In this document: one piece after another, positions 18,387 through 54,040 of the stretch | How the letters are laid out: the number at the start of each line of letters is the position of its first letter | Position numbering within the stretch: position 1 is the stretch's first letter | Source of the DNA: Thermodesulfobacteriota bacterium | GTDB taxonomy: Bacteria; Desulfobacterota; Syntrophorhabdia; Syntrophorhabdales; JANXAF01 | Assembly: GCA_025062045.1 (NCBI GenBank) | Contig: JANXAF010000003.1 | Span: 41,444 to 105,443, forward strand | Direction of reading: 5' to 3' | Length of the DNA: 64,000 nt | Notes under the pieces: generated by a model | What the model saw: the letters and a program-made list of their open reading frames with translations, nothing else | What the model was told of the DNA's origin: nothing | The model's database searches: none | Program-made: the position numbers and the translations under genes

Positions 18387-18569
18387 ATGGAGCATTACGA
18401 CATTTTCGCAATGGATAAAAAGATACAGGAGATAAAGGAAGCGGTCAAAGAACTCGAGAGGCTTGGGGAAGGAATAGAGGCTGTAAAAAGGAACTTAGTG
18501 CGACTTAAAGCGACTCTAAAGATGCTTGAACTAAATATCTCTGATGTAAAGCTTGTCTATCCTTCTTGA
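18387..18569 (+). CDS. 60-aa predicted helical/coiled-coil protein, unknown function
   Basis: Strong GGGAGG SD 7 nt upstream. Heptad-like K/E/L composition. 12 nt downstream of the ligase. Its 3' end overlaps the convergent Mo-enzyme gene by 13 nt. Confidence 0.5.
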   Translation: MEHYDIFAMDKKIQEIKEAVKELERLGEGIEAVKRNLVRLKATLKMLELNISDVKLVYPS

Positions 18570-21642: not shown

Positions 21643-21846
21643 CTAGTAAAGCATCTCCACAGGGAAGAAAATCTTTATGGCACCCATCGGACACTCAAGT
21701 CTACAGGACCCACAGTGCCAGCATTCATCGGCATACTTGACAATTGGCATATTTTTTTCGGAATCGAAATGTATAACATCCAAAGGACATATCTTATCGC
21801 ACATCCCACATCCAGAACATCTATCCATATCTATATTCGGGGGCAT
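21643..21846 (-). CDS. 2x[4Fe-4S] mini-ferredoxin, AprB-N-terminal-domain-like (copy A)
   Basis: 67 aa. Has CSGCGMCDKICP and CWHCGSCRLECP. Overall pattern is MPP.I....C.GC...C....K......CW.C..C...CP.GAI. Confidence 0.85.
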   Translation of the reverse strand: MPPNIDMDRCSGCGMCDKICPLDVIHFDSEKNMPIVKYADECWHCGSCRLECPMGAIKIFFPVEMLY

Positions 21847-23549: not shown

Positions 23550-24575
23550 CTAATTTAGTCTCAGTAATCTTTTTGCATTTCCCTCAAATATAGCAGTCTT
23601 GTCTTCCTCCGTAAGAATGTCGAGAGTCTCGATTATATGGATAGTTTCTCTTATGTAAGGAGAGTCCTCCTCGTGTATGTTTGGACGTGAGTCGAAGGGC
23701 ATGTCGGTTCCAAATAGTACATGATCGACCCCAAAAAAGAGGATTCCACACCTTGTGGATTCTTTTGCGCCGAAAAGAGCTGTGTCCGCATAGAACATTT
23801 TAAAGTAATCGATCGGTCTTTTCTTCATAGATTTTATGAGGGATTCGTAGTCTTCACCGGAAGTCCTAGAACCGAGCATGTCCCATGCTGGTCCAACCCT
23901 TCCAGCCTGGTAAGGTGCTATCCCGCCCAGGTGATGGGTTATTATCTTTATGGAGGGGTACTTCTCGAAGATTCTGGAGAAGACTAAGTGTGCCATGCAC
24001 ACACTCGTCTCATACGGCCATCCGAATATGAACCATATCTCGTAATGGCTTTTCGTTTCCGCCTTATAATCGGGAAAGTCAGAACCCCTCGTGGGGTGTA
24101 TCCATATGGGTCTTTCGATTTCTGCCATGTATTTGAATAGGGGTTCAAATTCTGGCCTATCCAATGGTTTCCCAAGGACATTGGTAAAGAGCTGAATCCC
24201 GAAAGCTCCAAGCTCATCTATTGCACGTTGAGCCTCTTTTAGTGAAGCGTCTATGTCATTCAATGGAAGGGAGGCGACAAACCCCAAAAACCTATCGGGG
24301 TATCTATCTACGATCTCTTTCATTGAGTCATTTGCGATCCTTGCAAGCTCGTATGTGACATTCGGTGGGCCGAATGTTTCGATTGGTGGAGCCGCAAGGG
24401 TCAAAACCTGAACGTAATTTTCAAACTTATCCATGATTCTAAATCTGTCTTCGAGCTCGTAGAGGGCATAAATATTTCGCACCCTTTTGTTCATATCTTT
24501 CGCATGGGGCGCGAGCTTTTGGACCTTATCCAGGTATTTTTTTGGCAAGATGTGGCAGAACATATCGATCTTCAT
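23550..24575 (-). CDS. amidohydrolase_2 (ACMSD-family) protein, atypical F-x-H N-terminal motif (copy A)
   Basis: 341 aa. Has KIDMFCHILP (ACMSD has KIDIHSHILP), PIWIHP, ITHHLGG and LFGTDMPFD. Confidence 0.8.
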   Translation of the reverse strand: MKIDMFCHILPKKYLDKVQKLAPHAKDMNKRVRNIYALYELEDRFRIMDKFENYVQVLTLAAPPIETFGPPNVTYELARIANDSMKEIVDRYPDRFLGFVASLPLNDIDASLKEAQRAIDELGAFGIQLFTNVLGKPLDRPEFEPLFKYMAEIERPIWIHPTRGSDFPDYKAETKSHYEIWFIFGWPYETSVCMAHLVFSRIFEKYPSIKIITHHLGGIAPYQAGRVGPAWDMLGSRTSGEDYESLIKSMKKRPIDYFKMFYADTALFGAKESTRCGILFFGVDHVLFGTDMPFDSRPNIHEEDSPYIRETIHIIETLDILTEEDKTAIFEGNAKRLLRLN

Positions 24576-26452
24576 CTCTTACTCCTCTTTATCCATTCGT
24601 AGATTATAAAGGGGGCCGATATTGAAAGGCCTACTATATCGTAAATTACTCCCGGCACCATAACTGTGAGACCACTTAGGAATAGAATCGCCCTGACCCA
24701 TAATTTTAGTTCGCTAAAAAGATAGCCCTCAACTCCGATAGCGAGAAGTACCACACCTATGACTCCAAAAATTATGGACTCGACTATTTCGATAGGTGAC
24801 CCGATGAGGATTAGACTCGGTTTAAATATGAATATGAAGGGCACAATGTAAGCAACGATACCTAGCTTCATCGCCTGGTATGCGGTTTTGAGCATATCAT
24901 CCTCTGCTATAGCCGCTGCCGCGTACGCTGCAAGGCAAACAGGTGGGGTGAGAAAAGAAAGAACTGCGAAATAAAAGACGAAAAAATGGGCAAGAATCGG
25001 TTGTATTCCAAGCTCAATAAGGGCGGGGGCAGCAAGCGTTACCATAAGGAGATAAGAACCGGTTGCGGGCATTCCCATACCGAGAATCACTGCTCCAAAT
25101 GCCGTAAGGAGAAGTAGAGGTACGATCTTCTTCCCGGCAAGTTCAACTAGAAGAGCTGAGAACGAAAATGCAAGTCCCGTAATGGAAAGAATCCCTATAA
25201 GAATTCCAGCTCCTGCACATGTTATACAGATCTCCAGGAAAAATCTTCCACATTCCGAGAATATGGGGAAGATACTTTTTGCTCTCACTCTTTTTAGCAC
25301 GAGCCACCCTAGAAGAAATGCGAATGCTGTAGTATAGATACCCGCGTATTCAGCCTCCATCTGCTTAAAAAAGAGAAGATATATGAGAAGTAGAAATGGG
25401 ATGGATATAAGCCAATTCTTTTTCAAAGTTTGGTATAGGGATGGGATTTTACTTTTCTCCATCCCTTTAAGTCCCAACTTTGCGGCCTCCAGATCTACTT
25501 GAACGAAAACGGCAAAATAGTAAAGTAAAGCGGGTATTATGGCGGCGATAGCGACCTTTGCGTATGGAATTCCTAGAAAGGTGGCCATGATAAATGCCGA
25601 CGCTCCCATAATGGGAGGCATAATCTGGCCGCCTGTTGAAGAGACGGCCTCTACAGCCCCTGCGTAGTAAGGCTTGTAGCCGGCTTTCTTCATAAGAGGT
25701 ATGGTGAATGTGCCTGTTGTTACAACGTTGGCAACCGCGCTTCCAGAAATCATGCCGAAAAGGGAAGATGCGAAAACAGCTACCTTCGCCTGACCTCCTC
25801 TAAATCTTCCTAAAATCGATGTTGCCACATCGTTAAAAAACTCACCCAAGCCGACCTTTGATATGGTCTGTCCGAATAGAATGAATACGAGAACGACTGT
25901 GGATGATACGATAACAGGAACCCCAATTATCCCTTGAGGATCAACGTAGAGGTAGTTGGCCAAATTCTTCCAAGAGACACTCTTTAGGCCTAGTGGAAGG
26001 TGGGAAAGAAAAAGGGCGACCAGTATGAAAAAGACGATAATTACTAAAAAAGGGTATCCCGTAACCCTTCTTATTGCCTCAAGGGTAAGTAGGATGGCAA
26101 GTATGCCTAAAAAGATCCTGTGGGGTTTTAAGAGCCCGACTTCTATCATTATTTCGTCGTAGAAGATGCCCAGATAAAAGAAGCAGAAAAGAGAAACAGA
26201 TGCAAAGACGAAATCGTAAAAAGGGACTTTATCTGAGGTTATCCTTCTTGAGGGACGGATGAATATAAAAGTTGAAAAGAGTGTAAGTCCGTAGATCAAA
26301 GCTACCCATTGGTGGATGTGGAATGACTTAGAGAAGTATGCAGGGAGGTTTAGAATAGCTGTTATCGCAAGGAGGGGGATAAGGAATAGGCCTAAGTTTC
26401 CGACTATCTTCGCTATCCCCCCCGGATCCCTAAAACGGGATACCCTTTCCAT
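24572..26452 (-). CDS. TRAP transporter fused permease (TAXI-associated DctQM-type)
   Basis: 626 aa and polytopic. Has GGQAKVAVFASSLFGMISGSAVANVVTTGTFTIPLMKKAGY. It is a clear paralog of 42451..44301. Confidence 0.85.
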   Translation of the reverse strand: MERVSRFRDPGGIAKIVGNLGLFLIPLLAITAILNLPAYFSKSFHIHQWVALIYGLTLFSTFIFIRPSRRITSDKVPFYDFVFASVSLFCFFYLGIFYDEIMIEVGLLKPHRIFLGILAILLTLEAIRRVTGYPFLVIIVFFILVALFLSHLPLGLKSVSWKNLANYLYVDPQGIIGVPVIVSSTVVLVFILFGQTISKVGLGEFFNDVATSILGRFRGGQAKVAVFASSLFGMISGSAVANVVTTGTFTIPLMKKAGYKPYYAGAVEAVSSTGGQIMPPIMGASAFIMATFLGIPYAKVAIAAIIPALLYYFAVFVQVDLEAAKLGLKGMEKSKIPSLYQTLKKNWLISIPFLLLIYLLFFKQMEAEYAGIYTTAFAFLLGWLVLKRVRAKSIFPIFSECGRFFLEICITCAGAGILIGILSITGLAFSFSALLVELAGKKIVPLLLLTAFGAVILGMGMPATGSYLLMVTLAAPALIELGIQPILAHFFVFYFAVLSFLTPPVCLAAYAAAAIAEDDMLKTAYQAMKLGIVAYIVPFIFIFKPSLILIGSPIEIVESIIFGVIGVVLLAIGVEGYLFSELKLWVRAILFLSGLTVMVPGVIYDIVGLSISAPFIIYEWIKRSKR

Positions 26453-26455
26453 CCT

Positions 26456-27469
26456 TTACCTTTTTAGCTGAGCGATAAGCCTGGACTGGATCTCTTCCAT
26501 CTCTTTTGTCCAGAGTCCTTTTTCTTTGAAGTATTTGACTACGCCAGGATGGTAAGGGATTACTATATCCTTAGAGACGAAAACGTCTTGATCCCAATCT
26601 TTTAAGAGTTTATGGACAAGCTCAAACTCTTTATAGTTCTCATAAAGAGCCTTGACTATTGTATAAGCGACACTGTCAGGGAGCTCAGCCGTTGTTGCGA
26701 GATAGATGTCATAGACCCATAGGTACTGTTCCCCGCTTATGCCGACCGTACCAGGTCCTTCCTTAACCTTTGCCATGTAACCTGGAAAATACTTTTTCAT
26801 CCTCTCAACGAGATGGGGTGAGGGATCGAGTGGCAAGTATCTGGCACCCTTTTTAGCGTTGAGTTCCTCGATCACGGGAGAACCGAGCGTTATTGTGCCT
26901 GAAGCATCGGCCCTACCCTCGATTACCGCTTTTACCCCATCGGGTGGGGAATGGACAGGGACCATTATCACGTCTTTTTCCTCGAGCCCTCCGTTGGCTA
27001 AAAGGGCTAGGGTCTGGAGTGTTATGGAAGTCCTAGGGTATTTCCCTGCCACCTTCTTCCCTTTAAGATCGGCTATCTTTCTTACAGGAGAGTCCTTAGG
27101 CACAACGATTCCGATCTTATTCGGGACAGTGGGCGTGAGGATTCTCAAATTCGGAAAGCCCTTTCCCTGAGAAAGTTTCTCCCATTCGTACTTGCCTAAA
27201 ACTGCCATCTCCGCGTCCCACATGTTCATGACTCCTAGTTGTATCTCACCCCTTGCCATATAAGGCATCCACGCCTCCGGCCCCGACATCGGTTTAACTA
27301 TCGCCTTAAGGTTAGTCTTTTCATTTATGACTTTTGCTGCGGCAACACCGATTGTGTGGAAGAACGCACCTATTGGATTCGTTCCAATGTTTATCTGATC
27401 GGTCGAAAAGGAAAGATTGGCGAAAAATAGTATGAAAGAGGCTAAAAAAAGAAGAGTTGTCACTTTCAT
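26456..27469 (-). CDS. TAXI-family TRAP solute-binding protein with signal peptide
   Basis: Has the N-terminal signal MKVTTLLFLASFILFFANLSFS and a periplasmic-binding fold. I prefer the ATG at 27469 (GGGGG SD) over the track's GTG at 27484. Confidence 0.75.
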   Translation of the reverse strand: MKVTTLLFLASFILFFANLSFSTDQINIGTNPIGAFFHTIGVAAAKVINEKTNLKAIVKPMSGPEAWMPYMARGEIQLGVMNMWDAEMAVLGKYEWEKLSQGKGFPNLRILTPTVPNKIGIVVPKDSPVRKIADLKGKKVAGKYPRTSITLQTLALLANGGLEEKDVIMVPVHSPPDGVKAVIEGRADASGTITLGSPVIEELNAKKGARYLPLDPSPHLVERMKKYFPGYMAKVKEGPGTVGISGEQYLWVYDIYLATTAELPDSVAYTIVKALYENYKEFELVHKLLKDWDQDVFVSKDIVIPYHPGVVKYFKEKGLWTKEMEEIQSRLIAQLKR

Positions 27470-27480
27470 GTTTACCCCCT

Positions 27481-28230
27481 TCACGTTCTTTTTTGTGAAA
27501 AATAGTCGCTTTTTGCAAGCGCTTTCTCCATAACATCACCCACGTATCTTAGGTGATCTTCCAGTAACCTTTTCACCTCCTCTTTTTTTCCGTTTTTTAA
27601 GGCAAGAACTATCTTTTCGTGATCTGCAACGTTCTTTTTAGGAAAAGAAAAGGGAAGTTTCACCTGACTTCTAAAATCCGAAACGACCGTCATTATGAGT
27701 TCTATTACTAGGATGAAGACCGAATTCTTGGAGATCCTTGCCAGGTGTCTGTGAAACTCGATATTTTCGTGGAAAGGCTGAATTTTGTTCTTTATCTTTT
27801 CCTTCGACACTCGAACGTTCTCTTCAAGCGTTCGAATGTCTTCGGCGGTAACATTTTCTAAAACATGCTTTATCATAATCTTTTCGATCTCAATCCGTGC
27901 AACCGTGAGATCGTGGATATCTATCTTTCTCATAAGAAATGCTTCAAGAAAGAGGTTAGAAAATGTGTTCATTATTGTGTCGGCAACAAATGCTCCCTTA
28001 CCTAAACCTTTCTCAACTTTTATATAGCCTGAAAGCTCAAGTAGTCTCATGGCCTCTCTTATCGTCTGTCTTCCAACGTTAAATTTCCTTGCAAGCTCAG
28101 ATTCTGACGGAAGCCTATCGCCAGGTTTAAGCTCACCGGCTAAAATGAGCCTCTTAATCTCGTCTGAGACGACTTCAAACGTTCTCTTTCTAATGATGGG
28201 GGTAACGTTGAGAAGATGTGATACAGTCAT
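27481..28230 (-). CDS. GntR-family (FadR/FCD-type) transcriptional regulator
   Basis: 249 aa. Has the wHTH LPSESELARKFNVGRQTIREAMRLLELSGYI and an all-helical C-terminal domain. It is the first gene of the operon. Confidence 0.85.
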   Translation of the reverse strand: MTVSHLLNVTPIIRKRTFEVVSDEIKRLILAGELKPGDRLPSESELARKFNVGRQTIREAMRLLELSGYIKVEKGLGKGAFVADTIMNTFSNLFLEAFLMRKIDIHDLTVARIEIEKIMIKHVLENVTAEDIRTLEENVRVSKEKIKNKIQPFHENIEFHRHLARISKNSVFILVIELIMTVVSDFRSQVKLPFSFPKKNVADHEKIVLALKNGKKEEVKRLLEDHLRYVGDVMEKALAKSDYFSQKRT

Positions 28231-45767: not shown

Positions 45768-46766
45768 TTAGTTTAACTTAAGGATCCTTTGGGCGTTTTT
45801 GTAAAAGACCTTTTCCTTTACAGAGTGTGAGTCTATCATACTCTCCAAAGCCTCAATGGTGGAACGGATTGATATATCGCCATTTTCCACATCGTACGGC
45901 ATGTCAGTTCCAAAAAGGAGATGATCTTCGCCAAAGAACTCAAGGGCGCATCTTAAAGCCAGAGGATTTCCATTCAGTGCAGTATCCGCATAGAACATCC
46001 TATAGTATTCGATCGGATGTTTTTTTAAACCAGGAAAAAACTTGAGTCCGAGCCGTTCCAGTCCATTGTCGTAATGGACAACTATGCGATTCGAAAGATA
46101 AGGTATCATACCACCGGCATGATGAGTTATAAATTTGATGTTTGGTAGACGCTCAAATATGCCAGAAAATACAAGCCTCGTCATGGCTTTTGCAGTTTCA
46201 AAAGGCCATCCAAATATCGAAAATATCTGGTGGTAAGAGAATTGCTCTACGGCGTAATCGGGCTCACTAGAGCTTCTCATGGGATGTATCCAGATGGGAA
46301 GATCATAATCTGCCATAAGTTTGTAAAGCGGAAAGAGCTCTTCAGAACTTAGTGGTTTTCCAAGAACCCTAGTGTAGATCTGAATACCTTTAAATTTAAG
46401 CTTTTCTATAGCCCTCTTTGTCTCCTCAATAGCGATACTTATGTTGTTAAGTGGGATATTTGCGATGGCTCCCACAAATCTGTCAGGATAATTCTCTACT
46501 AGTTCTGCCATTTCATCGTTACATATACGTGCGAGACGCAAAGCCTCATCGGGGTCGCTAACTACCTCTTCGATGGGAGGCATCGTCGTCGAGATAACCT
46601 GTTTGTATCCTTCGTACTTTTCCATTTTTTTTATCCTTCCATAAAAGTCGGTAAGGATAGGACGTTTATCTTGCACCGCCTTTTCGGTAGGAAACCTATC
46701 GGCGTATTTGTAAAGAGCTTCCTTGTACTTAGGAAGCATGACGTGATTAAAGATATCTATCTTCAT
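45768..46766 (-). CDS. amidohydrolase_2 (ACMSD-family) protein, atypical F-x-H motif (copy B)
   Basis: 332 aa. Has KIDIFNHVMLP, PIWIHP, ITHHAGG and LFGTDMPYD. Roughly half the residues are identical to 23550..24575 over a hand-aligned core of about 130 aa. Confidence 0.8.
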   Translation of the reverse strand: MKIDIFNHVMLPKYKEALYKYADRFPTEKAVQDKRPILTDFYGRIKKMEKYEGYKQVISTTMPPIEEVVSDPDEALRLARICNDEMAELVENYPDRFVGAIANIPLNNISIAIEETKRAIEKLKFKGIQIYTRVLGKPLSSEELFPLYKLMADYDLPIWIHPMRSSSEPDYAVEQFSYHQIFSIFGWPFETAKAMTRLVFSGIFERLPNIKFITHHAGGMIPYLSNRIVVHYDNGLERLGLKFFPGLKKHPIEYYRMFYADTALNGNPLALRCALEFFGEDHLLFGTDMPYDVENGDISIRSTIEALESMIDSHSVKEKVFYKNAQRILKLN

Positions 46767-46783
46767 ACTTCCCTCCTAAAACC

Positions 46784-48274
46784 TTATTTTCGCTTCTTCT
46801 TGAAAGCGGAGATCACAAGGATCAAAACGACAAGAATTATGGTGAGAGAAATTGGTCGCCTAAAAAGGGTCAGGTAATCGCCCTGAAACGCAATCAGCAT
46901 CTGGCGCATGTTGAGGTCCAATAATTTCGAGAGAACCATCGACAAGACCAATGGAGCAGGTTCAAACTCAAGCTTCCTCAAAAAATAGCCGATGAGCCCA
47001 AAGACGCAAACGACGTAAACGTCGAACACACTGTTATTTATACTATACGCCCCTATAACACACAAAAGAAGAATGAGCGGGTAAAGAATCCTGGGTGATA
47101 TCTTAAGTATTTGAACCCAAAGCGGGATAAGGGGAAGGTTGAGTATGAGTAACATCACATTTCCGATGTACATGCTACTTATTACTCCCCAGAAGATGTC
47201 CGGTTTCTCTTTAAGTAAAAGCGGACCGGGAACTATTCCGTGTACGAGGAAAGCTCCAAAAAGGACCGCAAGCATAACGTTGGGAGGAATACCTAGCACT
47301 AGAAGAGGGACAAAAGAAGTTGAAGCAGCTGCGTTGTTTGCAGATTCAGGCGCAGCAACCCCTTCTACTGCTCCAGACCCAAACTTCTCAGGACTTTTTG
47401 AGAACCTCTTCTCGACGCCATATGCCAGAAATGAAGCCACAACTGGTCCGCCACCAGGTAGTAAACCGAGCATAAAACCGACCAATGAGCCCCTAAGAAT
47501 AGCCCATTTGGCCTCCAACCAGTCCCGGTAAGTGAGGAAGAGGTTTCTGATCTTTGTTCTTACGAGCTCGGGTTCTACAATTCTTTCCATGTTTACGAGA
47601 ACTTCTCCTATTCCGAAAAGACCCATTGCCACCTGTGCTATGCCTAAGCCCTCGAAAAGATAAGGAATGCCAAAGGTGAAACGCTGTGCGGATGTGATAG
47701 GATCGAGTCCCACACACCCAAGAATGAGTCCAAAAACACACATTATGAAAGCTTTTATCCTAGAGCCGTGGGAGACGTAAACGACGAAAGTGAGTCCAAG
47801 CAAAACCAAAGCAAAATACTCACAAGGACCGAATCTTAAGGCTAAACCCACAAGGGGTTTTGCGATAAGCGTAAGCCCTATTATTCCAAAAGTTCCGGCT
47901 ATGAATGAACCGATTGCGGCTATGGCTAAAGCAGATGCAGCGCGGCCAGCCCTTGCCATTTGGTAGCCATCGAGACAGGTGATTACACTTGCCGCCTCGC
48001 CAGGGACGTTAAGAAGAATTGATGTTGTGGATCCGCCGTACATGGCCCCGTAGTATATCCCGGCAAGCATAATTATCGATCCGGCAGGCGGTAACTTGAA
48101 TGTCAAAGGAAGGAGTATGGAAATGGCTGCAACAGGCCCAAGACCAGGCAAAACCCCAATTAGGGTTCCTAGTGTAGCTCCCGCCAAACACAAAATCAGA
48201 TTTTCGGGGGTCAGTGCGATTGAAAAACCATAAATCAAACTAGAAAGTGTATCGCTTACCACTTCAACCCCCAA
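46784..48274 (-). CDS. tctA: tripartite tricarboxylate transporter large permease TctA
   Basis: Polytopic. Has GTLIGVLPGLGP and GLLPGGGP, which are TctA signatures. The track ORF extends to 48391 but that part overlaps tctB. A TTG at 48274 or a GTG at 48262 is a more plausible start. Confidence 0.8.
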   Translation of the reverse strand: MGVEVVSDTLSSLIYGFSIALTPENLILCLAGATLGTLIGVLPGLGPVAAISILLPLTFKLPPAGSIIMLAGIYYGAMYGGSTTSILLNVPGEAASVITCLDGYQMARAGRAASALAIAAIGSFIAGTFGIIGLTLIAKPLVGLALRFGPCEYFALVLLGLTFVVYVSHGSRIKAFIMCVFGLILGCVGLDPITSAQRFTFGIPYLFEGLGIAQVAMGLFGIGEVLVNMERIVEPELVRTKIRNLFLTYRDWLEAKWAILRGSLVGFMLGLLPGGGPVVASFLAYGVEKRFSKSPEKFGSGAVEGVAAPESANNAAASTSFVPLLVLGIPPNVMLAVLFGAFLVHGIVPGPLLLKEKPDIFWGVISSMYIGNVMLLILNLPLIPLWVQILKISPRILYPLILLLCVIGAYSINNSVFDVYVVCVFGLIGYFLRKLEFEPAPLVLSMVLSKLLDLNMRQMLIAFQGDYLTLFRRPISLTIILVVLILVISAFKKKRK

Positions 48275-48686
48275 AAAGGCTTCCTCGGGGTAGTGGCACC
48301 TGAAGAAGGATCTTAAAAACGATATATGATAGAAATGATGCCGAAAGAGAATAGATGACCGATCTTGGTAATTTAAAACCGCAGAGTGCAAAGATAAAGA
48401 TCATAAAAAGTATAGTCGCTACGAGAAACCCTAAAAGTTCAAGGACCAAGGCATACGTAAAGAGGAGAGTGAAGACTAATACAGGCCTTTTCCAGTAAAT
48501 TGGGACCTCATCCGCTTTACTCTTCATGTACAAGACTACCGAAAGAATAATGAGTATCGACGATGAAAAAAAGGGCAGAAAGCCAGGTCCGGGCGAAGAA
48601 AAACCGATCTTCAGCTTGAACGAAACATAAAGCACGTAGATACCGACCAGTAGGAAAAGAAGCGAAGCTATCTGCCCTTTCTTCAT
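48264..48686 (-). CDS. tctB: tripartite tricarboxylate transporter small permease TctB
   Basis: 140 aa with four hydrophobic helices. Lies between tctC and tctA. Confidence 0.7.
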   Translation of the reverse strand: MKKGQIASLLFLLVGIYVLYVSFKLKIGFSSPGPGFLPFFSSSILIILSVVLYMKSKADEVPIYWKRPVLVFTLLFTYALVLELLGFLVATILFMIFIFALCGFKLPRSVIYSLSASFLSYIVFKILLQVPLPRGSLFGG

Positions 48687-48690
48687 CCCC

Positions 48691-49662
48691 TTAGTACGGT
48701 CTGGTTGCCGATTCCTTAATAAGCCCGGTTTCTTTCAGAGTCTTTTCCAGTTTGAACCACATGGTCCTTAAATATTCCGTGTACTCCTTCGATCCCATAA
48801 ATATCGGTATCATGTCCAAACTATCGAGAACGCGCTTGAACTCAGGTGAATCTTTTGCCTTGCTAAAGGCATCCTCCAATTTTCTGACCACCTCATCAGG
48901 CATCTTTGCAGGGCCCAGAATAGAAAATACCGTTTCGTTAACAAAGTCGTATCCCAGTTCCTTTAAAGTAGGGACTTCAGGATGCTTAGGATTTCTTGTT
49001 GCCTGATGGTAAGCAAGTACTCTGATCTCACCCGATCTCACATATGGAGCATGCTCCGGTCCGGAAGAGCAGATATCCACGTGACCTCCAAGGAGAGCAA
49101 CAAGAGCATCTTTTGACCCGGGATAGGGGACATGGATTATGTCGAGTTTATCTTTGAATTTCACGTATTCCATCGCATGGTGCATGGCAGTGCCAACTCC
49201 GGCTGAGCTGTACTTTAGCTTGCCCGGATTCTTTTTTGCGTACTCCACGAGCTCTGCATGAGTCTTCCAGGGAGCGTCTTTTCTCACACATGTTGCATTC
49301 TGTGGAGACGCAAACGCAACAATTGGAGTAAAGCTCGCTAAAGGTTTGAAACTCACTTGCTGAAAGTGTGGTGCCCTTATTATGCCTGTACTAGTTGCAG
49401 CACAAAGGAGGTATCCGTCAGGTTTTGCGGTCGAAATCAGGGTAGGTGCTACTGTTCCGCCACCTCCAGGCTTATACTCGATAATGAAACTGGTCCCCAA
49501 AAATTTTTCAGCAGCCGAGCACAGGGCCCTCGTTGTAAGATCCATCGATCCACCAGCTGTGAATGCCACATATACAGTTATAGGTCTTTCCGGATATCCG
49601 GCGGCAAAAACCTTTCCACAAATAAAGGCTAAGAGCAAAATAAAGAGAATTTTTTTAAACAT
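48691..49662 (-). CDS. tctC: tripartite tricarboxylate transporter substrate-binding protein TctC (Bug family)
   Basis: 323 aa with a signal peptide. Has YPERPITVYVAFTAGGSMDLTTR and KPGGGGTV. Confidence 0.85.
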   Translation of the reverse strand: MFKKILFILLLAFICGKVFAAGYPERPITVYVAFTAGGSMDLTTRALCSAAEKFLGTSFIIEYKPGGGGTVAPTLISTAKPDGYLLCAATSTGIIRAPHFQQVSFKPLASFTPIVAFASPQNATCVRKDAPWKTHAELVEYAKKNPGKLKYSSAGVGTAMHHAMEYVKFKDKLDIIHVPYPGSKDALVALLGGHVDICSSGPEHAPYVRSGEIRVLAYHQATRNPKHPEVPTLKELGYDFVNETVFSILGPAKMPDEVVRKLEDAFSKAKDSPEFKRVLDSLDMIPIFMGSKEYTEYLRTMWFKLEKTLKETGLIKESATRPY

Positions 49663-49885
49663 GGTTCCCTCCCCTTTTATAGGATAACATCAAAGGCAGT
49701 GGTATCCTAAGCTTTATAGCCCCGTTCGGACATTCCTCTACACACAATCGACAGTGAAAGCAGAATTCCGGGTAGGCAACATGAGGGACACTGTCTTTTT
49801 CGCTGCCAAAATACACATCTTCCGAGCACACATCAACACATTTTCCGCAGGCCGAACAGAGCTCAGGTTCTATCACTGGAGGCAT
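49655..49885 (-). CDS. 2x[4Fe-4S] mini-ferredoxin, AprB-N-terminal-domain-like (copy B)
   Basis: 76 aa. Has CSACGKCVDVCS and CFHCRLCVEECP. It is a clear homolog of 21643..21846 (MPP.I....CS.CG.C...C...V....SEK......Y.E.C.HC..C..ECP.GAIK). Confidence 0.85.
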   Translation of the reverse strand: MPPVIEPELCSACGKCVDVCSEDVYFGSEKDSVPHVAYPEFCFHCRLCVEECPNGAIKLRIPLPLMLSYKRGGNHV

Positions 49886-49888
49886 AAA

Positions 49889-51550
49889 TCAGATTCTTTT
49901 CCAAGTGTATACTAATTTTCCATCCTCTTTGCGGAAGAAAAGCCCTTTCTCGTTTAAGCTAGGATCTAGGAAAGGATAATCCATCCTCTTATGAAAGCCT
50001 CTACTTTCCTTTCTCTCGATCGCACCTAAAAATACAATTTCCGCAAGATCAAGAAGGTTAAATACCTCTAGTACTCTTGCAACTTCCCATTGATTTCTGG
50101 CAGTGGCGGTCTTGTAAAATTTTTCTTTTAGCCTTTTCAAATTCTCGTATCCAGCACAGAGAAGGTTTTCATACCTCAAAGTTCCCGCATAGTCCCACAT
50201 TATCTGTTGAAGACATATATTGGCCTCAAACCAAGTAGCCCCAACTTTTCTGTTTCTAATTTCTGCCAAAAATTCCTGAAGACGCGCTGTAAGCTCCTTG
50301 AGTATCATAGATTCCTTTTTTTCCACCTTATTTACCAGGCTTGCCGCATTTTGTCCGGCAATCCAGCCAAGTGTTGCCGCAGGCCCCACTCCGACCATTA
50401 CCTCATCACCGGCTGCAAAGACTTGTGGCTTTGAAGTCCTACATTCTGTATCTATCCATATTTTCCCTTCAGGAATTAGATGATACGTCATGAATTCTAC
50501 CTTGTCCTTTTTGAGGTCAATCCCTTCTTCTTTTACGTGATCGAGAAGAGAAGCCATCCCTTCGTGTAAGAAAAATTCAATCATGTATTCGTAGTCTTCA
50601 TCGGTTATGCCCTCCATATCCATATAGACAGGGCCTCTTCCTTTTCGAACTAATATTTCAGGCAAATCTGGCCTTGCCTCGAGTACCATATCACCGTACA
50701 ACCTTTCTGGCCTCTTAACGTATGGGCCGCAGGGTTTACCGTTCCCGTCCTTTAGCACTCCAACCCAAGTTGCCTGCCCAAACCTGGCAAAGTACTTAGG
50801 TCCCATGTGCCTTTTTGGCAATTCGGGACTCACTATATCTATGCCCGCCCTGAGCGCCATTGCCCTGCCATCCCCTGTCAATGTTAGGCAATTAGGGGTG
50901 CTGGAGAGCCAACCAGGTACTGGAGGAGGGTATAGCCTATCTGTCGTTCCCGTTGCAAGAACAACAGCCCTGGAAACATACACATGAATCTTTTCTTCCC
51001 TCGTATGAATCGCCAAAACCGCACACGGAGAGTCTTCTTCTATGATCAAATCCTTTGCCATCACTCTGTTATGAATCTTCACTCCCCTTTCCTGAGCCTT
51101 TCTGTAAAGAACCTTTTTTTGATTTTTGCCCCTGTATTTTAGATGGGTAAAAACCTCCCCGGGAAAAGAATGGCCCGCAAATTCCCATTTCTTTCCATTC
51201 CTCATCGGTATTCCCCAGTCGTCCCACACCTTTACGATTTCAAATGAATGTTCAAGAAATTTTTTTATCACCGCAGGAGGTGTACCAGATTGCATGATCG
51301 CAAGCTTCGGGCCTTTAAGACACTCTTTTAAAAAGGAGTCAAGATCCGCTCCGTGTACTTCAGGGATGTAACACCAGAAATGATCGTTTCCAGATCTTCC
51401 ACGACCGCTGAATTCGGCATTGCCTTTTTCAATTACAATCACATCCGCGCCTTTGTCTTTTGCTGAAATGGCAGCCATAAGTCCAGCTATTCCACCACCA
51501 ACACACAATACATCAGTAGTATACATTTCTATGGGGTAGGAAAAAACCAT
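49889..51550 (-). CDS. AprA/SdhA-superfamily FAD flavoprotein (copy B)
   Basis: 553 aa. Has DVLCVGGGIAGLMAA, VVLATGTT, FAAGDE and a C-terminal ERKESRGFHKRMDYP (SDH/FRD/NadB/AprA signature). The start may be M1 (leaderless) or M9. Confidence 0.75.
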   Translation of the reverse strand: MVFSYPIEMYTTDVLCVGGGIAGLMAAISAKDKGADVIVIEKGNAEFSGRGRSGNDHFWCYIPEVHGADLDSFLKECLKGPKLAIMQSGTPPAVIKKFLEHSFEIVKVWDDWGIPMRNGKKWEFAGHSFPGEVFTHLKYRGKNQKKVLYRKAQERGVKIHNRVMAKDLIIEEDSPCAVLAIHTREEKIHVYVSRAVVLATGTTDRLYPPPVPGWLSSTPNCLTLTGDGRAMALRAGIDIVSPELPKRHMGPKYFARFGQATWVGVLKDGNGKPCGPYVKRPERLYGDMVLEARPDLPEILVRKGRGPVYMDMEGITDEDYEYMIEFFLHEGMASLLDHVKEEGIDLKKDKVEFMTYHLIPEGKIWIDTECRTSKPQVFAAGDEVMVGVGPAATLGWIAGQNAASLVNKVEKKESMILKELTARLQEFLAEIRNRKVGATWFEANICLQQIMWDYAGTLRYENLLCAGYENLKRLKEKFYKTATARNQWEVARVLEVFNLLDLAEIVFLGAIERKESRGFHKRMDYPFLDPSLNEKGLFFRKEDGKLVYTWKRI

Positions 51551-51558: not shown

Positions 51559-51588
51559 ACTATAAATGGTTAAGAGTCAGGATGTCAA
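51559..51588 (-). promoter_or_regulatory. putative sigma70-type promoter of the flavoprotein-led operon, possibly leaderless
   Basis: On the minus strand: TTGACA (51588-51583), an 18-nt spacer, TATAGT (51564-51559), then only 8 nt with no SD before the ATG at 51550. Confidence 0.4.
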
Positions 51589-51615
51589 GGATAATCGAGT
51601 AGAATAGTTGAAATG

Positions 51616-51688
<73 letters not shown>

Positions 51689-51834: not shown

Positions 51835-53487
51835 ATGAAATATCTTCGAGGTTTTACTCCGTATCCAAAAGAAGAAAGACTAAGGTATAAAAAACTGGGT
51901 ATATGGAGGGGGATCACATTTGGAGATTTGATTGACAGGGCGGCAGATATTTATCCGAGAAGAGAAGCCCTTGTCGATAAAGACATGAGGTTTACCTATT
52001 CTGAGGTTAGAGAGCGAGTGAATCGGCTCGCAGTTGGATTTATCGAGTTAGGCATAAAAAAGGCTGAAAGGGTTTTGCTTCAGTTACCGAACTGGGCCGA
52101 GTTCGTTTTCGCGTATTTCGCTCTTCAAAAGATAGGAGCAATCCCTGTGCTCCTCATAGACAGGTACAGGCAGTACGAAATTTCCCACCTCTTTAAACTT
52201 ACGGGGGCTAAGACATGGATAGTACCTGAGGCTTATGGAAAGACCGATTACATACCCATAATAAGGGATGTTCTTGCCACAACGAAGGGCATAAAAAACG
52301 TTATACTCGTAAGAAGCAAGAATCAGAATGGGTTTACGAGCCTAGAAAGACTTTTAGATACGAAAATAGACGAATCTTCACTTAGGTTACTGGAGAAGAG
52401 AAGACCTGATCCTATGCAGGTAGCCCATATGGGTCCAACAGGAGGGACAACAGGTCTACCAAAGGTCGTCCCGAGAACGCACAATGACTACTTGTGCAGG
52501 GTTGAGTACTCTGCTTACGCCCTTGAGATGACATTAAATGATATAACTCTAATCTGCGCTCCCATTGGCCACGATATGGCCTTCAGCATGGGTCTTTGCA
52601 CGACTCTTTTTTCGTTCGGAAAGGTTGTGATGTTGGACTCAACAAGAGCCCAAGACATACTCCCTACGATTGAAAAAGAAAAAGTAACATACACTTGCTG
52701 GACACCTACATTTGTCGCCAGAATCCTAGAGTTCGAAGGCCTAAAGGATTACGATCTGAGCTCGCTTAAAAAAATGTACTGCGGCGGTGGAGCAAGCTCG
52801 CCTAAGCTTGTGAGAGAGGCGATAGAGAAATTGAGATGTATTTACGTTAACGCATATGGCGGTACGGAAGGGATGAAAGCTCAGACGAGATTAGATGATC
52901 CACTGGATATTGTAGAGAGAACGGTGGGAAAGAAGGTCTGCCCATACGACATCTATAAAATTGTGGATGAGAAAGGAAACGAGCTTCCTTTTGGCAAACA
53001 GGGCGAGCTTGTCATAAAAGGTCCATGCGTCTTTACAGGTTATTACAACGCTCCTGAGGAAAATGAGAAAGTATTTACTAAAGATGGGTTTTTCAGAACC
53101 GGAGATTTGGCAATGATGGACGAGGAAGGAAACATAACAATAACAGGAAGGATAAAGGAGATGATAAATAGGGGTGGAGAGAGTATAAGTGCTACGGAGA
53201 TAGAAAATCTCATATTAAGCCATCCGAAGGTTGCCCTTGTGGCGGTCATAGGAATGCCTGATGTGACGATGGGAGAGAGGGTCTGTGCCTACATAAAACC
53301 AAAGGAGGGGGAGACGATAACCTTTGATGAAATAATAGCCCATCTTAAAGAGAAGAAAGCTTCAGTTCTTCAGTTTCCCGAGCGAATAGAATTTGTGGAT
53401 TCCATGCCCCTTACAGCGGCTAATAAGATAGATAAGAGGGCTTTGAGGGAAGACATAAAGAGAAAGATTGGCTGGAAGGACGAATGA
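51835..53487 (+). CDS. EntE/DhbE-clade aryl-acid adenylating enzyme (aryl-CoA/AMP ligase)
   Basis: 550 aa. Collinear with E. coli EntE as I recall it: RYKKLGIWRG.TFGDLI, TGGTTGLPKVVPRTHNDY, TRLDD, INRGGESISATEIENLILSHP and FPERIEFVDSMPLTAANKIDKRAL. Confidence 0.8.
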   Translation: MKYLRGFTPYPKEERLRYKKLGIWRGITFGDLIDRAADIYPRREALVDKDMRFTYSEVRERVNRLAVGFIELGIKKAERVLLQLPNWAEFVFAYFALQKIGAIPVLLIDRYRQYEISHLFKLTGAKTWIVPEAYGKTDYIPIIRDVLATTKGIKNVILVRSKNQNGFTSLERLLDTKIDESSLRLLEKRRPDPMQVAHMGPTGGTTGLPKVVPRTHNDYLCRVEYSAYALEMTLNDITLICAPIGHDMAFSMGLCTTLFSFGKVVMLDSTRAQDILPTIEKEKVTYTCWTPTFVARILEFEGLKDYDLSSLKKMYCGGGASSPKLVREAIEKLRCIYVNAYGGTEGMKAQTRLDDPLDIVERTVGKKVCPYDIYKIVDEKGNELPFGKQGELVIKGPCVFTGYYNAPEENEKVFTKDGFFRTGDLAMMDEEGNITITGRIKEMINRGGESISATEIENLILSHPKVALVAVIGMPDVTMGERVCAYIKPKEGETITFDEIIAHLKEKKASVLQFPERIEFVDSMPLTAANKIDKRALREDIKRKIGWKDE

Positions 53488-54034: not shown

Positions 54035-54040
54035 AGAATC

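What the first reader, a model, noticed from the sequence alone, without database searches (positions are those of the whole stretch)
45768..51550. A second, paralogous copy of the flavoprotein / mini-ferredoxin / F-x-H amidohydrolase cassette, wired to a TctCBA (TTT) importer instead of TAXI-TRAP
The same three protein types recur about 22 kb away in a second tight minus-strand operon. The amidohydrolases are roughly half identical over a core of about 130 residues that I aligned by hand. The two ferredoxins are clearly homologous along their full length. The flavoproteins share architecture but are much more divergent. Only the uptake system has been swapped (TTT versus TAXI-TRAP), and copy B lacks the Mo enzyme and the HxH amidohydrolase. 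A three-gene core kept through duplication while the transporter is exchanged is the signature of a functional module that has diversified in substrate range. This is the strongest evidence in the window that the trio works together.
Basis: seen in the sequence. Interest (0 to 1): 0.85.

Follow-up and report, generated by a model that had tools for sequence, protein, structure and literature searches.

The report
Second flavoprotein–ferredoxin–decarboxylase uptake operon
The window really does carry two versions of an uncharacterised anaerobic gene cassette: an acid importer, a flavoprotein–ferredoxin pair that resembles sulfate-reduction enzymes but lacks their catalytic residues, and a decarboxylase-like enzyme. 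The two copies are ancient relatives rather than a recent duplicate, and only the flavoprotein–ferredoxin pair is always kept together.

Summary
45768-51550 (minus strand) is a tight six-gene operon: FlavB, FdxB, TctC, TctB, TctA, AmhB. It repeats three protein types of the operon at 18557-28230. Identities are AmhA/AmhB 45% (E 1e-98), FdxA/FdxB 46%, FlavA/FlavB 28% (E 4e-51).

- Flav–Fdx is an AprAB/PAPS-reductase-like FAD plus 2x[4Fe-4S] pair. The ferredoxin gene is adjacent in 75 of 77 related loci.
- It is not an APS or fumarate reductase. The catalytic Asn74, Arg265 and His398 are replaced, and a family-specific Asp-His-Phe motif sits at the flavin.
- The copies are deep lineages. Each has relatives in other MAGs at up to 69-86% identity, and FlavA scores closer to PAPS reductase than to FlavB.
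- Carboxylate importers (TTT, TAXI-TRAP, MFS) accompany the pair in most loci.
- The FxH amidohydrolase follows A-type pairs (9 of 9 loci) but only some B-type pairs (7 of 21). Relatives of AmhB often occur without any flavoprotein.
- In a related genome an A-type cassette fills the chromosomal slot that operon B fills here.

The context is a phenylphosphate synthase/carboxylase island, aryl-CoA ligases and an acetylene-hydratase-like Mo enzyme. This suggests anaerobic catabolism of phenolic or aromatic carboxylates. The substrate and chemistry are inferred, not shown.

The parts
49889..51550 (-). FlavB: cytoplasmic FAD flavoprotein of the AprA / fumarate-reductase superfamily (553 aa; NCBI calls a start 8 codons downstream, giving 545 aa)
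   Evidence: Pfam FAD_binding_2 plus Succ_DH_flav_C. Best solved relative is PAPS reductase alpha 8a8o_A, E 1e-36. Below every NCBIfam cut-off. D56-H57-F58 family motif present, AprA catalytic residues absent.
49655..49885 (-). FdxB: 76-aa 2x[4Fe-4S] ferredoxin, presumed beta subunit of FlavB
   Evidence: Fer4 families. 3 nt after the FlavB stop codon. A homologous ferredoxin gene is adjacent in 31 of 31 B-type loci. Matches PAPSR beta 8a8o_C and AprB from residue 1.
48691..49662 (-). TctC periplasmic solute-binding protein, with an N-terminal hydrophobic stretch read as a signal peptide
   Evidence: Pfam TctC, 220 bits. Nearest solved relatives are BugE, BugD and terephthalate-binding TphC, all with similar scores.
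48264..48686 (-). TctB small membrane subunit
   Evidence: Pfam TctB, 69.6 bits.
46784..48262 (-). TctA large membrane subunit (492 aa from the GTG at 48262; the mechanical ORF runs to 48391)
   Evidence: Pfam TctA, 543 bits, with the domain starting at ORF residue 65. Start inferred from the sequence: TGA-A-GTG preceded by GGGGG. The ortholog in L123 is 495 aa.
45768..46766 (-). AmhB: FxH-type Amidohydro_2, resembling ACMSD/LigW non-oxidative decarboxylases
   Evidence: Pfam Amidohydro_2, 134.8 bits. PDB matches: 3ij6 E 3e-44, LigW and ACMSD about 1e-31. F6 is conserved in 36 of 40 AmhB-type sequences. H8, H161, H216 and D288 are invariant.
51559..51588 (-). Promoter-like site (TTGACA-18-TATAGT) just upstream of FlavB
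   Evidence: Consensus match only. The number of such sites in the region does not exceed the shuffled expectation.
51615..51688 (-). tRNA-Phe (GAA) between operon B and the divergent CoA ligase
   Evidence: ARAGORN.
51835..53487 (+). Aryl/acyl-CoA ligase, divergent from operon B; possible pathway partner
   Evidence: NCBIfam best match is 2,3-dihydroxybenzoate-AMP ligase, 421 bits, below its cut-off. An 83%-identical ortholog lies divergently next to an A-type cassette in L041.
21862..23547 (-). FlavA: paralogous-lineage flavoprotein of operon A
   Evidence: Pfam. 8a8o_A E 2.7e-66, AprA E 1e-47. 28% identical to FlavB. DHF motif present.
21643..21846 (-). FdxA: 67-aa 2x[4Fe-4S] ferredoxin
   Evidence: A ferredoxin gene is adjacent in 44 of 46 A-type loci.
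23550..24575 (-). AmhA: FxH-type Amidohydro_2
   Evidence: All 21 members of the AmhA clade sampled are Flav-linked.
24572..27484 (-). TAXI-TRAP importer of operon A (binding protein 26456-27484, fused permease 24572-26452)
   Evidence: Pfam NMT1_3 and DctM.
27481..28230 (-). GntR/FCD regulator heading operon A
   Evidence: Pfam GntR plus FCD.
20644..21633 (-). HxH-type Amidohydro_2 of operon A (no counterpart in B)
   Evidence: Best PDB match is ACMSD, E 3.5e-37.
18557..20647 (-). Cytoplasmic bis-MGD Mo/W enzyme of operon A (no counterpart in B)
   Evidence: Pfam. Best PDB match is acetylene hydratase 2e7z_A, E 7.6e-96.

Best explanation
Operon B is a six-gene uptake-and-conversion operon for an organic carboxylate, most likely an aromatic or phenolic acid. 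It is the B-type representative of a widespread cassette family in anaerobes, and the window also carries an A-type representative.

**Proposed steps**
1. TctC captures the acid in the periplasm and TctBA imports it. This rests on family membership.
2. FlavB and FdxB form an AprAB/PAPS-reductase-like heterodimer. Two [4Fe-4S] clusters pass electrons one at a time to or from a non-covalently bound FAD. The FAD performs a two-electron step on the imported acid or its product. The architecture is inferred from homology and invariant gene adjacency. The chemistry differs from APS or fumarate reduction because those catalytic residues are missing. A family-specific Asp-His-Phe motif lies four to two alignment columns before the flavin-contacting Asn74 of AprA and may act as the acid/base.
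3. AmhB, an FxH variant of the ACMSD/LigW metal-dependent decarboxylases, removes or adds a carboxyl group, or hydrolyses or hydrates, at an sp2 carbon. This is inferred from homology.
4. The neighbouring aryl-CoA ligase may then feed the product into CoA-dependent aromatic catabolism. This is speculative.

The invariant functional unit is Flav–Fdx, usually with a carboxylate importer. The amidohydrolase is a pathway accessory, tightly bound in the A lineage and loosely in the B lineage. The two window copies are old, separately evolving lineages, probably with different substrates, and they behave as exchangeable cassettes next to tRNA genes.
For: - Domain content and operon packing.
- Closest solved relatives of both flavoproteins are PAPS reductase alpha and AprA. 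The ferredoxins match the PAPSR beta and AprB N-terminal domains.
- A ferredoxin gene is adjacent to the flavoprotein gene in 31 of 31 and 44 of 46 related loci, and as uncalled ORFs in L123 and L125.
- A TTT or TAXI-TRAP importer lies within 6 kb in 13 of 21 B-type and 8 of 9 A-type loci. MFS transporters and GntR regulators appear in others.
- Amidohydrolase subtype matches flavoprotein subtype with no cross-pairing.
- The DHF motif is conserved in 54 of 58 FlavA-labelled and 32 of 32 FlavB-labelled sequences. Two of the four A-labelled exceptions are PAPSR-like and two are outliers. The motif is absent from FrdA, SdhA, AprA and PAPSR.
- The amidohydrolase retains H8, H161, H216 and D288. 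Its best PDB relatives are decarboxylases.
- Aromatic context in the window: a cluster resembling phenylphosphate synthase and carboxylase, a UbiX-type flavoprotein and three aryl/acyl-CoA ligases.
- The Mo enzyme of operon A is closest to acetylene hydratase. That is the clade holding catechol dehydroxylases, with homologs in anaerobic aromatic degraders (PMC7028382).
- Flav-free AmhB relatives sit beside a URO-D-family protein, a B12-binding protein and MFS transporter genes. I read this as consistent with methoxy-aromatic metabolism.
- L041 has an A-type cassette in the same CoA ligase-rimP-nusA slot.
Against: - No member of either flavoprotein lineage or of the FxH amidohydrolases has been characterised, and six literature searches found nothing on the cassette. 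Substrate, reaction and direction are guesses.
- 14 of 21 B-type loci have no amidohydrolase within 6 kb. 6 of 8 AmhB-anchored loci have no flavoprotein. The link between AmhB and FlavB–FdxB in operon B could be loose.
- TctC and TAXI binding proteins give no ligand resolution.
- The aromatic inference rests on neighbourhood and homology only. Aliphatic di- or tricarboxylates are equally compatible with TTT and TAXI importers.
- The locus samples come from pattern-based retrieval and many contigs are truncated.
- The trees are neighbour-joining without support values.
Confidence: 0.55

Rival explanations
1. Flav–Fdx is a true APS/PAPS-reductase-type enzyme working through a flavin-N5 sulfite adduct. 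The cassette would then metabolise a sulfonated or sulfated carboxylate imported by TTT or TRAP, releasing or consuming sulfite.
For: - Best solved relatives are PAPS reductase and AprA.
- JGI annotates A-type proteins as adenylylsulfate reductase subunit A.
- From my own knowledge, TTT and TRAP systems are known to import sulfonates such as sulfolactate and isethionate.
- The Apr-type Trp234 is retained in 53 of 55 A-type sequences.
Against: - The invariant Apr active-site residues are replaced in both lineages (residue roles from PMC2211403). Asn74 becomes Met or Trp, Arg265 becomes Val/Leu or Gly, His398 becomes Ser/Thr or a gap, and the adenine clamp Arg317 is lost.
- Scores are far below the aprA model cut-offs: 180 and 60 bits against 641.75.
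- The Pfam-scanned genes of the window include no sat, qmo, dsr, sulfite-reductase or sulfur-trafficking family. The known assimilatory AprAB-like group does have such neighbours (PMC8477390).
Confidence: 0.07
2. Flav–Fdx is a soluble fumarate-reductase or succinate-dehydrogenase-type enzyme, or a TcuA-like tricarballylate dehydrogenase. It would act on an aliphatic di- or tricarboxylate brought in by TTT or TAXI, with the amidohydrolase acting as a LigJ-like hydratase.
For: - The family belongs to the fumarate-reductase superfamily.
- TTT and TAXI importers classically carry C4-C6 di- and tricarboxylates.
- The A-type keeps the Arg equivalent to FrdA R287 (54 of 55). The B-type keeps the His equivalent to FrdA H232 (28 of 32).
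- LigJ hydratases appear among weaker PDB matches, E about 1e-9.
Against: - Neither lineage has the full His-Arg-His-Arg set.
- The HGANRLG segment carrying R390 is deleted, as in AprA, and the covalent-FAD His is absent.
- TcuA matches only the N-terminal FAD-binding region: 63 bits against a cut-off of 369.
- The amidohydrolases are far closer to decarboxylases (E 1e-31 to 1e-44) than to LigJ.
Confidence: 0.15
3. The resemblance of the two operons is partly coincidental. Flav–Fdx with an importer is one unit. AmhB with TctCBA is an independent uptake-and-decarboxylation unit that happens to be fused into the same transcript here. The trio has no joint function in copy B.
For: - AmhB relatives frequently sit directly beside TctC or TctBAC or MFS genes with no flavoprotein (L124, L126, L004).
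- 14 of 21 B-type flavoprotein loci lack any amidohydrolase.
- Flav-linked and Flav-free AmhB relatives are interspersed in the tree.
Against: - The same six-gene order recurs in L123, whose AmhB ortholog is 80% identical. L015, L018 and L019 have similar arrangements.
- An amidohydrolase within 6 kb in 33% of B-type loci is well above my rough estimate of about 5% for a gene family of about 15 copies per genome. That estimate is mine and was not computed.
- The strict A-with-A and B-with-B subtype pairing is hard to explain without functional coupling.
Confidence: 0.2

Closest known systems
AprAB-like PAPS reductase of Methanothermococcus thermolithotrophicus (PDB 8a8o; PMC10322725) and dissimilatory APS reductase AprAB (PDB 1jnr, 2fja)
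   Same: - An FAD alpha subunit of the fumarate-reductase family is paired with a small 2x[4Fe-4S] beta subunit encoded next to it.
- These are the best solved relatives of both FlavA (E 2.7e-66) and FlavB (E 1e-36).
- The R390-bearing segment of Frd/Sdh is deleted in all of them.
- The ferredoxin lacks the long AprB tail, as reported for assimilatory AprB-like proteins (PMC8477390).
- The A-type keeps Trp234.
   Different: - Asn74, Arg265, His398 and Arg317 are all replaced.
- An Asp-His-Phe motif is present instead.
- The neighbours are carboxylate importers, Amidohydro_2 genes, GntR regulators and a Mo enzyme rather than sat, cysC, qmo or sulfite-reductase genes.
- Scores fall below the model cut-offs.
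Fumarate reductase / succinate dehydrogenase flavoproteins (E. coli FrdA, SdhA), thiol:fumarate reductase TfrA, L-aspartate oxidase
   Same: Same superfamily and domain order (FAD_binding_2 plus Succ_DH_flav_C). One catalytic residue is retained per lineage: the R287 equivalent in A-type and the H232 equivalent in B-type.
   Different: No covalent-FAD His, no complete substrate-binding tetrad, no SdhB/FrdB-type three-cluster subunit and no membrane anchor.
ACMSD / LigW / gamma-resorcylate / 2,3-dihydroxybenzoate / isoorotate decarboxylases (Amidohydro_2, PF04909) and the uncharacterised 3ij6 protein
   Same: TIM-barrel amidohydrolase-2 fold family. The conserved positions I take to be the His, His and Asp metal or catalytic residues are retained. 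3ij6, the best PDB match, also has an aromatic residue (Tyr) in place of the first His.
   Different: The first His of the HxH motif is a conserved Phe, so metal coordination must differ. No substrate is known for this subfamily.
Tripartite tricarboxylate transporters (TctCBA) and TAXI-TRAP transporters
   Same: Clear family members by Pfam. They are binding-protein-dependent secondary importers of organic anions.
   Different: The ligand is unknown. The binding proteins are about equally distant from glutamate-, aspartate-, nicotinate- and terephthalate-binding relatives.

Membership tests
APS/PAPS reductase (AprAB, PAPSR) | FAD alpha subunit plus adjacent 2x[4Fe-4S] beta subunit | tested here: met
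   Ferredoxin gene adjacent in 75 of 77 loci.
APS/PAPS reductase (AprAB, PAPSR) | Invariant active-site residues Asn-A74, Arg-A265 and His-A398 (PMC2211403) | tested here: not met
   MAFFT alignment with 1jnr_A and 8a8o_A. A-type has Met, Val/Leu and Ser/Thr. B-type has Trp, Gly and a gap.
APS/PAPS reductase (AprAB, PAPSR) | Trp-A234 at the flavin and adenine clamp Arg-A317 | tested here: inconclusive
   Trp234 is kept in 53 of 55 A-type sequences. In B-type a conserved Trp lies six columns away, so the alignment is uncertain there. Arg317 is replaced in both lineages.
APS/PAPS reductase (AprAB, PAPSR) | Curated model score (TIGR02061 aprA cut-off 641.75; PRK06854 cut-off 557) | tested here: not met
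   FlavA scores 180 and 285 bits. FlavB scores 60 and 142 bits.
APS/PAPS reductase (AprAB, PAPSR) | Neighbourhood of sulfate-activation or sulfur-handling genes | tested here: not met
   The Pfam-scanned genes of the window (about 44 ORFs, not every ORF) gave none. In related loci the neighbours I identified were transporters, amidohydrolases, Mo enzymes and regulators; many other neighbours were not annotated.
Fumarate reductase / succinate dehydrogenase flavoprotein | Catalytic His232, Arg287, His355 and Arg390 (E. coli FrdA numbering) and covalent-FAD His44 | tested here: not met
   A-type keeps only the Arg287 equivalent and B-type only the His232 equivalent. The Arg390 segment is deleted and His44 is Gly. 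All NCBIfam Sdh/Frd models score below cut-off.
Tricarballylate dehydrogenase TcuA | Full-length match above the NF006130 cut-off (369 bits) | tested here: not met
   63 bits, covering N-terminal residues 10-202 only.
Amidohydro_2 (PF04909; ACMSD/LigW-type) | Pfam gathering score | tested here: met
   AmhB 134.8 bits and AmhA 115.3 bits against a cut-off of 26.4.
Amidohydro_2 (PF04909; ACMSD/LigW-type) | Four metal ligands: HxH on strand 1, a His, and an Asp | tested here: inconclusive
   The first His is Phe (F in 26 of 28 AmhA-type and 36 of 40 AmhB-type). H8, H161, H216 and D288 are invariant. From my own knowledge, LigW and gamma-resorcylate decarboxylase also deviate at the first position (Glu), so activity is still plausible.
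Amidohydro_2 (PF04909; ACMSD/LigW-type) | Demonstrated decarboxylase activity on a defined substrate | not testable with these tools
   Requires an enzyme assay.
Tripartite tricarboxylate transporter (TTT) | TctC, TctB and TctA encoded together, each above the Pfam cut-off | tested here: met
   220, 69.6 and 542.6 bits.

The most novel reading that the evidence does not exclude
The Asp-His-Phe-motif Flav–Fdx heterodimers are a new class of ferredoxin-coupled flavoenzymes. They would carry out a step of anaerobic aromatic catabolism on free acids, without ATP or CoA activation. Candidate reactions are dearomatising reduction or reductive dehydroxylation of phenolic acids. The FxH amidohydrolase would then decarboxylate or hydrolytically open the reduced product. 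The A and B lineages would be substrate-specialised versions that genomes swap as cassettes at tRNA-flanked sites.
Probability: 0.12. Interest if true: 0.85.

Novelty: new variant of a known kind. Interest (0 to 1): 0.55.

Why it matters
1. **Annotation trap.** A-type flavoproteins are automatically labelled adenylylsulfate reductase subunit A in JGI metagenomes, yet they lack the Apr catalytic residues and sit in organic-acid operons. Counting them as aprA would overstate sulfate-reducing or sulfur-oxidising potential in sediment and aquifer surveys.
2. **An unexplored enzyme family.** The family is abundant: 1,379 hits at E<=1e-10 among the 8,000 scored candidates for FlavB and 951 at E<=1e-30 for FlavA. 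These counts may include more distant superfamily members. Every related locus retrieved came from a MAG or metagenome contig, assigned to Desulfobacterota, Chloroflexota, KSB1 and Bathyarchaeia among others. If the flavoproteins act on phenolic or aromatic acids, they would fill a gap in anaerobic degradation of lignin-derived carbon.
3. **A defined test.** The invariant Flav–Fdx pair, the DHF motif and the two cassette lineages give a clear experimental entry point.

Tried and rejected
- **Exact-sequence look-up of FlavB** found nothing, because the public annotation starts 8 codons later.
- **APS/PAPS reductase identity** was rejected on catalytic residues and model scores.
- **Fumarate reductase, TfrA, NadB and TcuA identity** was rejected in the same way.
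- **Recent in-genome duplication** was rejected. Each component has much closer relatives in other genomes than its window paralog.
- **An obligate three-protein complex** was rejected for the B lineage from neighbourhood statistics and the interspersed tree.
- **Ligand inference from the TctC and TAXI binding proteins** gave no discrimination among solved relatives.
- **Six literature searches** found no description of the cassette. They covered resorcinol reductase, AprA-like proteins, combinations of amidohydrolase, TTT, fumarate reductase and ferredoxin, hydroxyhydroquinone, Desulfobacula with acetylene hydratase, and carboxyvanillate decarboxylase in sulfate reducers. The 2026 benzene-degradation flavoprotein paper (PMC13416013) concerns a glycolate-oxidase/VAO-type protein and is unrelated.
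- **Promoter and terminator scans** were not enriched over shuffles.
- **GC content** does not mark either cassette as foreign.
- **Structure prediction and fold search** were not run, because sequence searches against solved structures already fixed the fold family.

Full report

Yes. ORF listing and Pfam scans show that 45768-51550 holds six tightly packed minus-strand genes:
- FlavB, 49889-51550, with FAD_binding_2 and Succ_DH_flav_C domains.
- FdxB, 49655-49885, with two 4Fe-4S motifs.
- TctC, 48691-49662.
- TctB, 48264-48686.
- TctA, 46784-48262. I set the start at a GTG one base after the TctB stop codon, behind a GGGGG run.
- AmhB, 45768-46766, an Amidohydro_2 protein that begins MKIDIFNH.

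Operon A at 18557-28230 holds a GntR regulator, a TAXI binding protein, a fused TRAP permease, AmhA (MKIDMFCH), FlavA, FdxA, an HxH amidohydrolase and a molybdopterin enzyme.

BLASTP gives these pairwise values:
- AmhA/AmhB: 45% identity over the full length, E 1e-98.
- FlavA/FlavB: 28%, E 4e-51.
- FdxA/FdxB: 46%, E 2e-17.
- AmhB/HxH amidohydrolase: 31%.

tblastn of every component against the window finds no further copies, so copy B does lack the Mo enzyme and the HxH amidohydrolase.

**2. What the flavoprotein–ferredoxin pair is**

The best solved relative of both flavoproteins is the alpha subunit of the AprAB-like PAPS reductase of Methanothermococcus thermolithotrophicus (8a8o_A). The E-values are 2.7e-66 for FlavA and 1e-36 for FlavB. 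AprA of Archaeoglobus comes next. That enzyme is an alpha2-beta2 complex of an FAD subunit and a small two-cluster ferredoxin subunit (PMC10322725). FdxA and FdxB match its beta subunit and the N-terminal ferredoxin domain of AprB from residue 1, among many generic ferredoxin hits.

I fetched 35 loci encoding FlavB relatives from species-representative genomes and 80 loci encoding FlavA relatives from metagenomes. A homologous small ferredoxin gene lies within 400 nt of the flavoprotein gene in 31 of 31 and 44 of 46 loci that have DNA on that side. In two further loci the gene caller missed it, but the ORF is there. The two-gene pair is therefore an obligate unit. An AprAB-like heterodimer is the natural inference.

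**3. What it is not**

I aligned 88 full-length family members with 1jnr_A, 8a8o_A and E. coli FrdA and SdhA. The AprA and PAPSR sequences were transcribed from the output and their lengths checked. The invariant APS-reductase residues Asn-A74, Arg-A265 and His-A398 contact the sulfate and the flavin N5 (PMC2211403). All three are replaced.

| Position | Frd/Sdh | Apr/PAPSR | A-type | B-type |
|---|---|---|---|---|
| Asn-A74 | Ala/Val | Asn | mostly Met | mostly Trp |
| Arg-A265 | gap | Arg | Val/Leu | Gly |
| His-A398 | gap/Ile | His | Ser/Thr | gap |
| Arg-A317 (adenine clamp) | Val | Arg | Leu/Val | Val/Ala |
| Trp-A234 | gap | Trp | Trp in 53 of 55 | Pro; a Trp lies six columns away |
| FrdA His44 (covalent FAD) | His | Gly | Gly | Gly |
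| FrdA His232 | His | Pro/Ala | Thr | His in 28 of 32 |
| FrdA Arg287 | Arg | Thr | Arg in 54 of 55 | Thr/Ile/Val |
| FrdA Arg390 segment | present | deleted | deleted | deleted |

All curated NCBIfam models for AprA, Sdh/Frd, TfrA, NadB and TcuA score well below their cut-offs.

Both lineages share an Asp-His-Phe motif (residues 56-58 in both window proteins). It lies four to two alignment columns before the position of Asn-A74. It is conserved in 54 of 58 FlavA-labelled and 32 of 32 FlavB-labelled sequences and is absent from FrdA, SdhA, AprA and PAPSR. The four A-labelled exceptions are two PAPSR-like sequences carrying Asn-Ala-Leu and two outliers. This motif is the best current marker of the family. 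It suggests shared chemistry that differs from both APS and fumarate reduction.

**4. How related are the two copies?**

They are deep lineages, not a recent duplicate.
- FlavB has relatives at up to 69% identity in other MAGs.
- FlavA has relatives at up to 78%.
- AmhB has relatives at up to 80%.
- AmhA has relatives at about 60% in many loci and 86% in L041.

By bit score and BLOSUM distance FlavA is nearer to PAPSR and AprA (0.73-0.75) than to FlavB (0.85). In a neighbour-joining tree the A clade groups with Apr/PAPSR and the B clade branches outside, with short internal branches. This tree has no support values.

AmhA and AmhB clades are sisters within an FxH subfamily. The Phe is conserved in 26 of 28 and 36 of 40 sequences, while H8, H161, H216 and D288 are invariant.

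**5. Does the trio travel together?**

Only in part. The first table uses loci with at least 4 kb on both sides and counts genes within 6 kb.

| Lineage | Loci | Any Amidohydro_2 | TTT or TAXI-TRAP |
|---|---|---|---|
| A-type | 9 | 9 (6 FxH, 5 HxH) | 8 |
| B-type | 21 | 7 (4 FxH, 3 HxH) | 13 |

A looser flank requirement (at least 1.3 kb on both sides) with a tighter 3 kb window gives lower bounds.

| Lineage | Loci | Any Amidohydro_2 | Transporter |
|---|---|---|---|
| A-type | 23 | 14 | 20 |
| B-type | 25 | 5 | 13 |

B-type loci without these genes often carry an MFS transporter, a GntR regulator or an alpha/beta hydrolase instead.

Subtype pairing is strict. AmhA-type occurs only beside FlavA-type and AmhB-type only beside FlavB-type.

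Anchoring on the amidohydrolase gives a different picture. Only 2 of 8 neighbourhoods of close AmhB relatives (63-80% identity) contain a Flav–Fdx pair. Several of the others place the amidohydrolase directly beside TctC, TctBAC or MFS genes, or beside further Amidohydro_2 paralogs. In the tree, Flav-linked and Flav-free AmhB relatives are interspersed, whereas all 21 sampled members of the AmhA clade are Flav-linked.

The conserved core is therefore Flav–Fdx, usually with an importer. The amidohydrolase is an accessory, tightly coupled in lineage A and loosely in lineage B.

**6. Cassette behaviour**

L041 comes from a related organism, with 70-86% protein identity. Its gene order is nusA, rimP, CoA ligase, then GntR, TAXI, DctM, AmhA, FlavA, FdxA, HxH amidohydrolase, Mo enzyme, then tRNA-Thr. 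The window has the same nusA, rimP and CoA ligase genes (83% identity for the ligase). They are followed instead by tRNA-Phe and operon B. Operon A lies 22 kb away next to tRNA-Pro.

An A-type cassette in one genome thus fills the slot that a B-type cassette fills in the other, and all three cassette ends abut a tRNA gene. It is a single comparison. GC content gives no sign of recent foreign origin.

**7. Likely role**

The window is rich in anaerobic aromatic catabolism genes:
- three UbiD-like genes;
- a UbiX-type flavoprotein;
- a HAD-like gene;
- a PEP-utiliser/PPDK_N pair typical of phenylphosphate synthase and carboxylase;
- a PaaK-like ligase and two other aryl/acyl-CoA ligases;
- a third TAXI-TRAP system.

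The Mo enzyme of operon A is closest to acetylene hydratase (E 7.6e-96). That is the bis-MGD clade containing catechol dehydroxylases, with homologs reported in Desulfobacula, Geobacter and other aromatic degraders (PMC7028382). The amidohydrolases are closest to decarboxylases of phenolic and related acids: LigW, ACMSD, gamma-resorcylate, 2,3-dihydroxybenzoate and isoorotate decarboxylases. Flav-free AmhB relatives sit beside a URO-D-family protein, a B12-binding protein and MFS transporters. I read that as consistent with methoxy-aromatic metabolism.

My best reading is import of an aromatic or phenolic carboxylate, a ferredoxin-coupled flavin redox step, a decarboxylation or hydrolysis by the FxH amidohydrolase, and then CoA activation. 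The order of steps, the direction of electron flow and the substrate are inferred, not shown. Aliphatic di- or tricarboxylates remain possible.

**8. Comparison with the literature and novelty**

An assimilatory AprAB-like group is known. It has sulfur-assimilation neighbours, and one member is the characterised PAPS reductase (PMC8477390; PMC10322725). The present family differs in active site and in neighbourhood. Six full-text searches found no description of it.

JGI pipelines label A-type proteins adenylylsulfate reductase subunit A and B-type proteins succinate dehydrogenase/fumarate reductase flavoprotein. Both labels conflict with the residue analysis.

I rate this a new variant of a known kind: an AprAB/fumarate-reductase-superfamily heterodimer with a new signature motif and a new catabolic context. 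Interest is moderate at 0.55. The finding is a solid, widespread and uncharacterised module with a practical annotation consequence. Its function remains hypothetical, and the strong claim of a conserved co-duplicated trio does not hold.

**Limitations**
- Locus retrieval used short peptide patterns from the queries, so it is biased towards closer relatives.
- Many metagenome contigs are truncated.
- The MAFFT alignment is uncertain in loop regions, notably around Trp234 and His355 in the B-type.
- The trees are neighbour-joining without bootstrap support.
- No structure prediction was run.

Noticed in passing
window 6075-18374: A gene island typical of anaerobic phenol activation. It holds three UbiD-like genes (6643-7995, 8250-9695, 10856-12283), a UbiX-type flavoprotein (6075-6653) and a HAD-like gene (9717-10271). 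It also holds a LysR regulator (12372-13277), a PEP-utiliser/PPDK_N pair resembling phenylphosphate synthase (13989-15842, 15874-16950) and a PaaK-like CoA ligase (17040-18374). It lies directly beside operon A.
   Followed up: partly
window 18557-20647: The Mo/W bis-MGD enzyme of operon A is closest to acetylene hydratase (2e7z_A, E 7.6e-96). By my reading, the residue after the second cluster cysteine is Gln (TCGLCQIGC) where acetylene hydratase has its catalytic Asp13 (from memory, not checked). It belongs to the clade that includes catechol dehydroxylases (PMC7028382). In related loci it tends to co-occur with the HxH-type amidohydrolase.
   Followed up: partly
window 28377-28454 and 51615-51688; L041 14994-15065: Each cassette abuts a tRNA gene: tRNA-Pro beside operon A, tRNA-Phe beside operon B and tRNA-Thr beside the A-type cassette in L041. 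No integrase was seen and GC content is not deviant.
   Followed up: partly
L041 1-15065 versus window 51835-55303: In a related genome the nusA-rimP-CoA ligase block is followed by an A-type cassette instead of tRNA-Phe plus operon B. This looks like cassette replacement at a conserved chromosomal slot.
   Followed up: yes
window 39853-44301: A third uptake unit: a CoA ligase (39853-41406, 34% identical to the ligase at 51835) followed by a TAXI binding protein (41485-42432) and a fused TRAP permease (42451-44301, 39% identical to the operon A permease) on the plus strand. It has no flavoprotein or amidohydrolase.
   Followed up: no
P0245 to P0357; P0125 onwards: Public metagenome annotation names A-type flavoproteins adenylylsulfate reductase subunit A and B-type flavoproteins succinate dehydrogenase/fumarate reductase flavoprotein. 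The residue analysis contradicts both names.
   Followed up: yes
L026 13-8658: A Desulfatiglandales contig carries two tandem Flav–Fdx pairs flanked by four divergent Amidohydro_2 genes, an extreme version of the cassette.
   Followed up: no
L123 11596-18177: Beside an operon-B ortholog lies a larger flavoprotein (656 aa, motif Asp-His-Trp) with a 100-aa ferredoxin, a TAXI-TRAP system and a B12-binding radical SAM gene. This suggests further lineages of the same theme.
   Followed up: no
L008, L009, L010, L021, L034, L038 (gene immediately upstream of the flavoprotein): In several B-type loci (two labelled Syntrophorhabdales or Syntrophobacterales, the rest unclassified Deltaproteobacteria MAGs), five of the six without an amidohydrolase, an alpha/beta-hydrolase gene (213-305 aa) sits directly upstream of the flavoprotein gene. 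It may be an alternative accessory enzyme.
   Followed up: no
window 708-4946: An alpha/beta hydrolase, a carboxylesterase (501 aa) and an acetyl-CoA-synthetase-like gene sit at the left end of the window. They may be involved in ester cleavage upstream of aromatic acid use.
   Followed up: no
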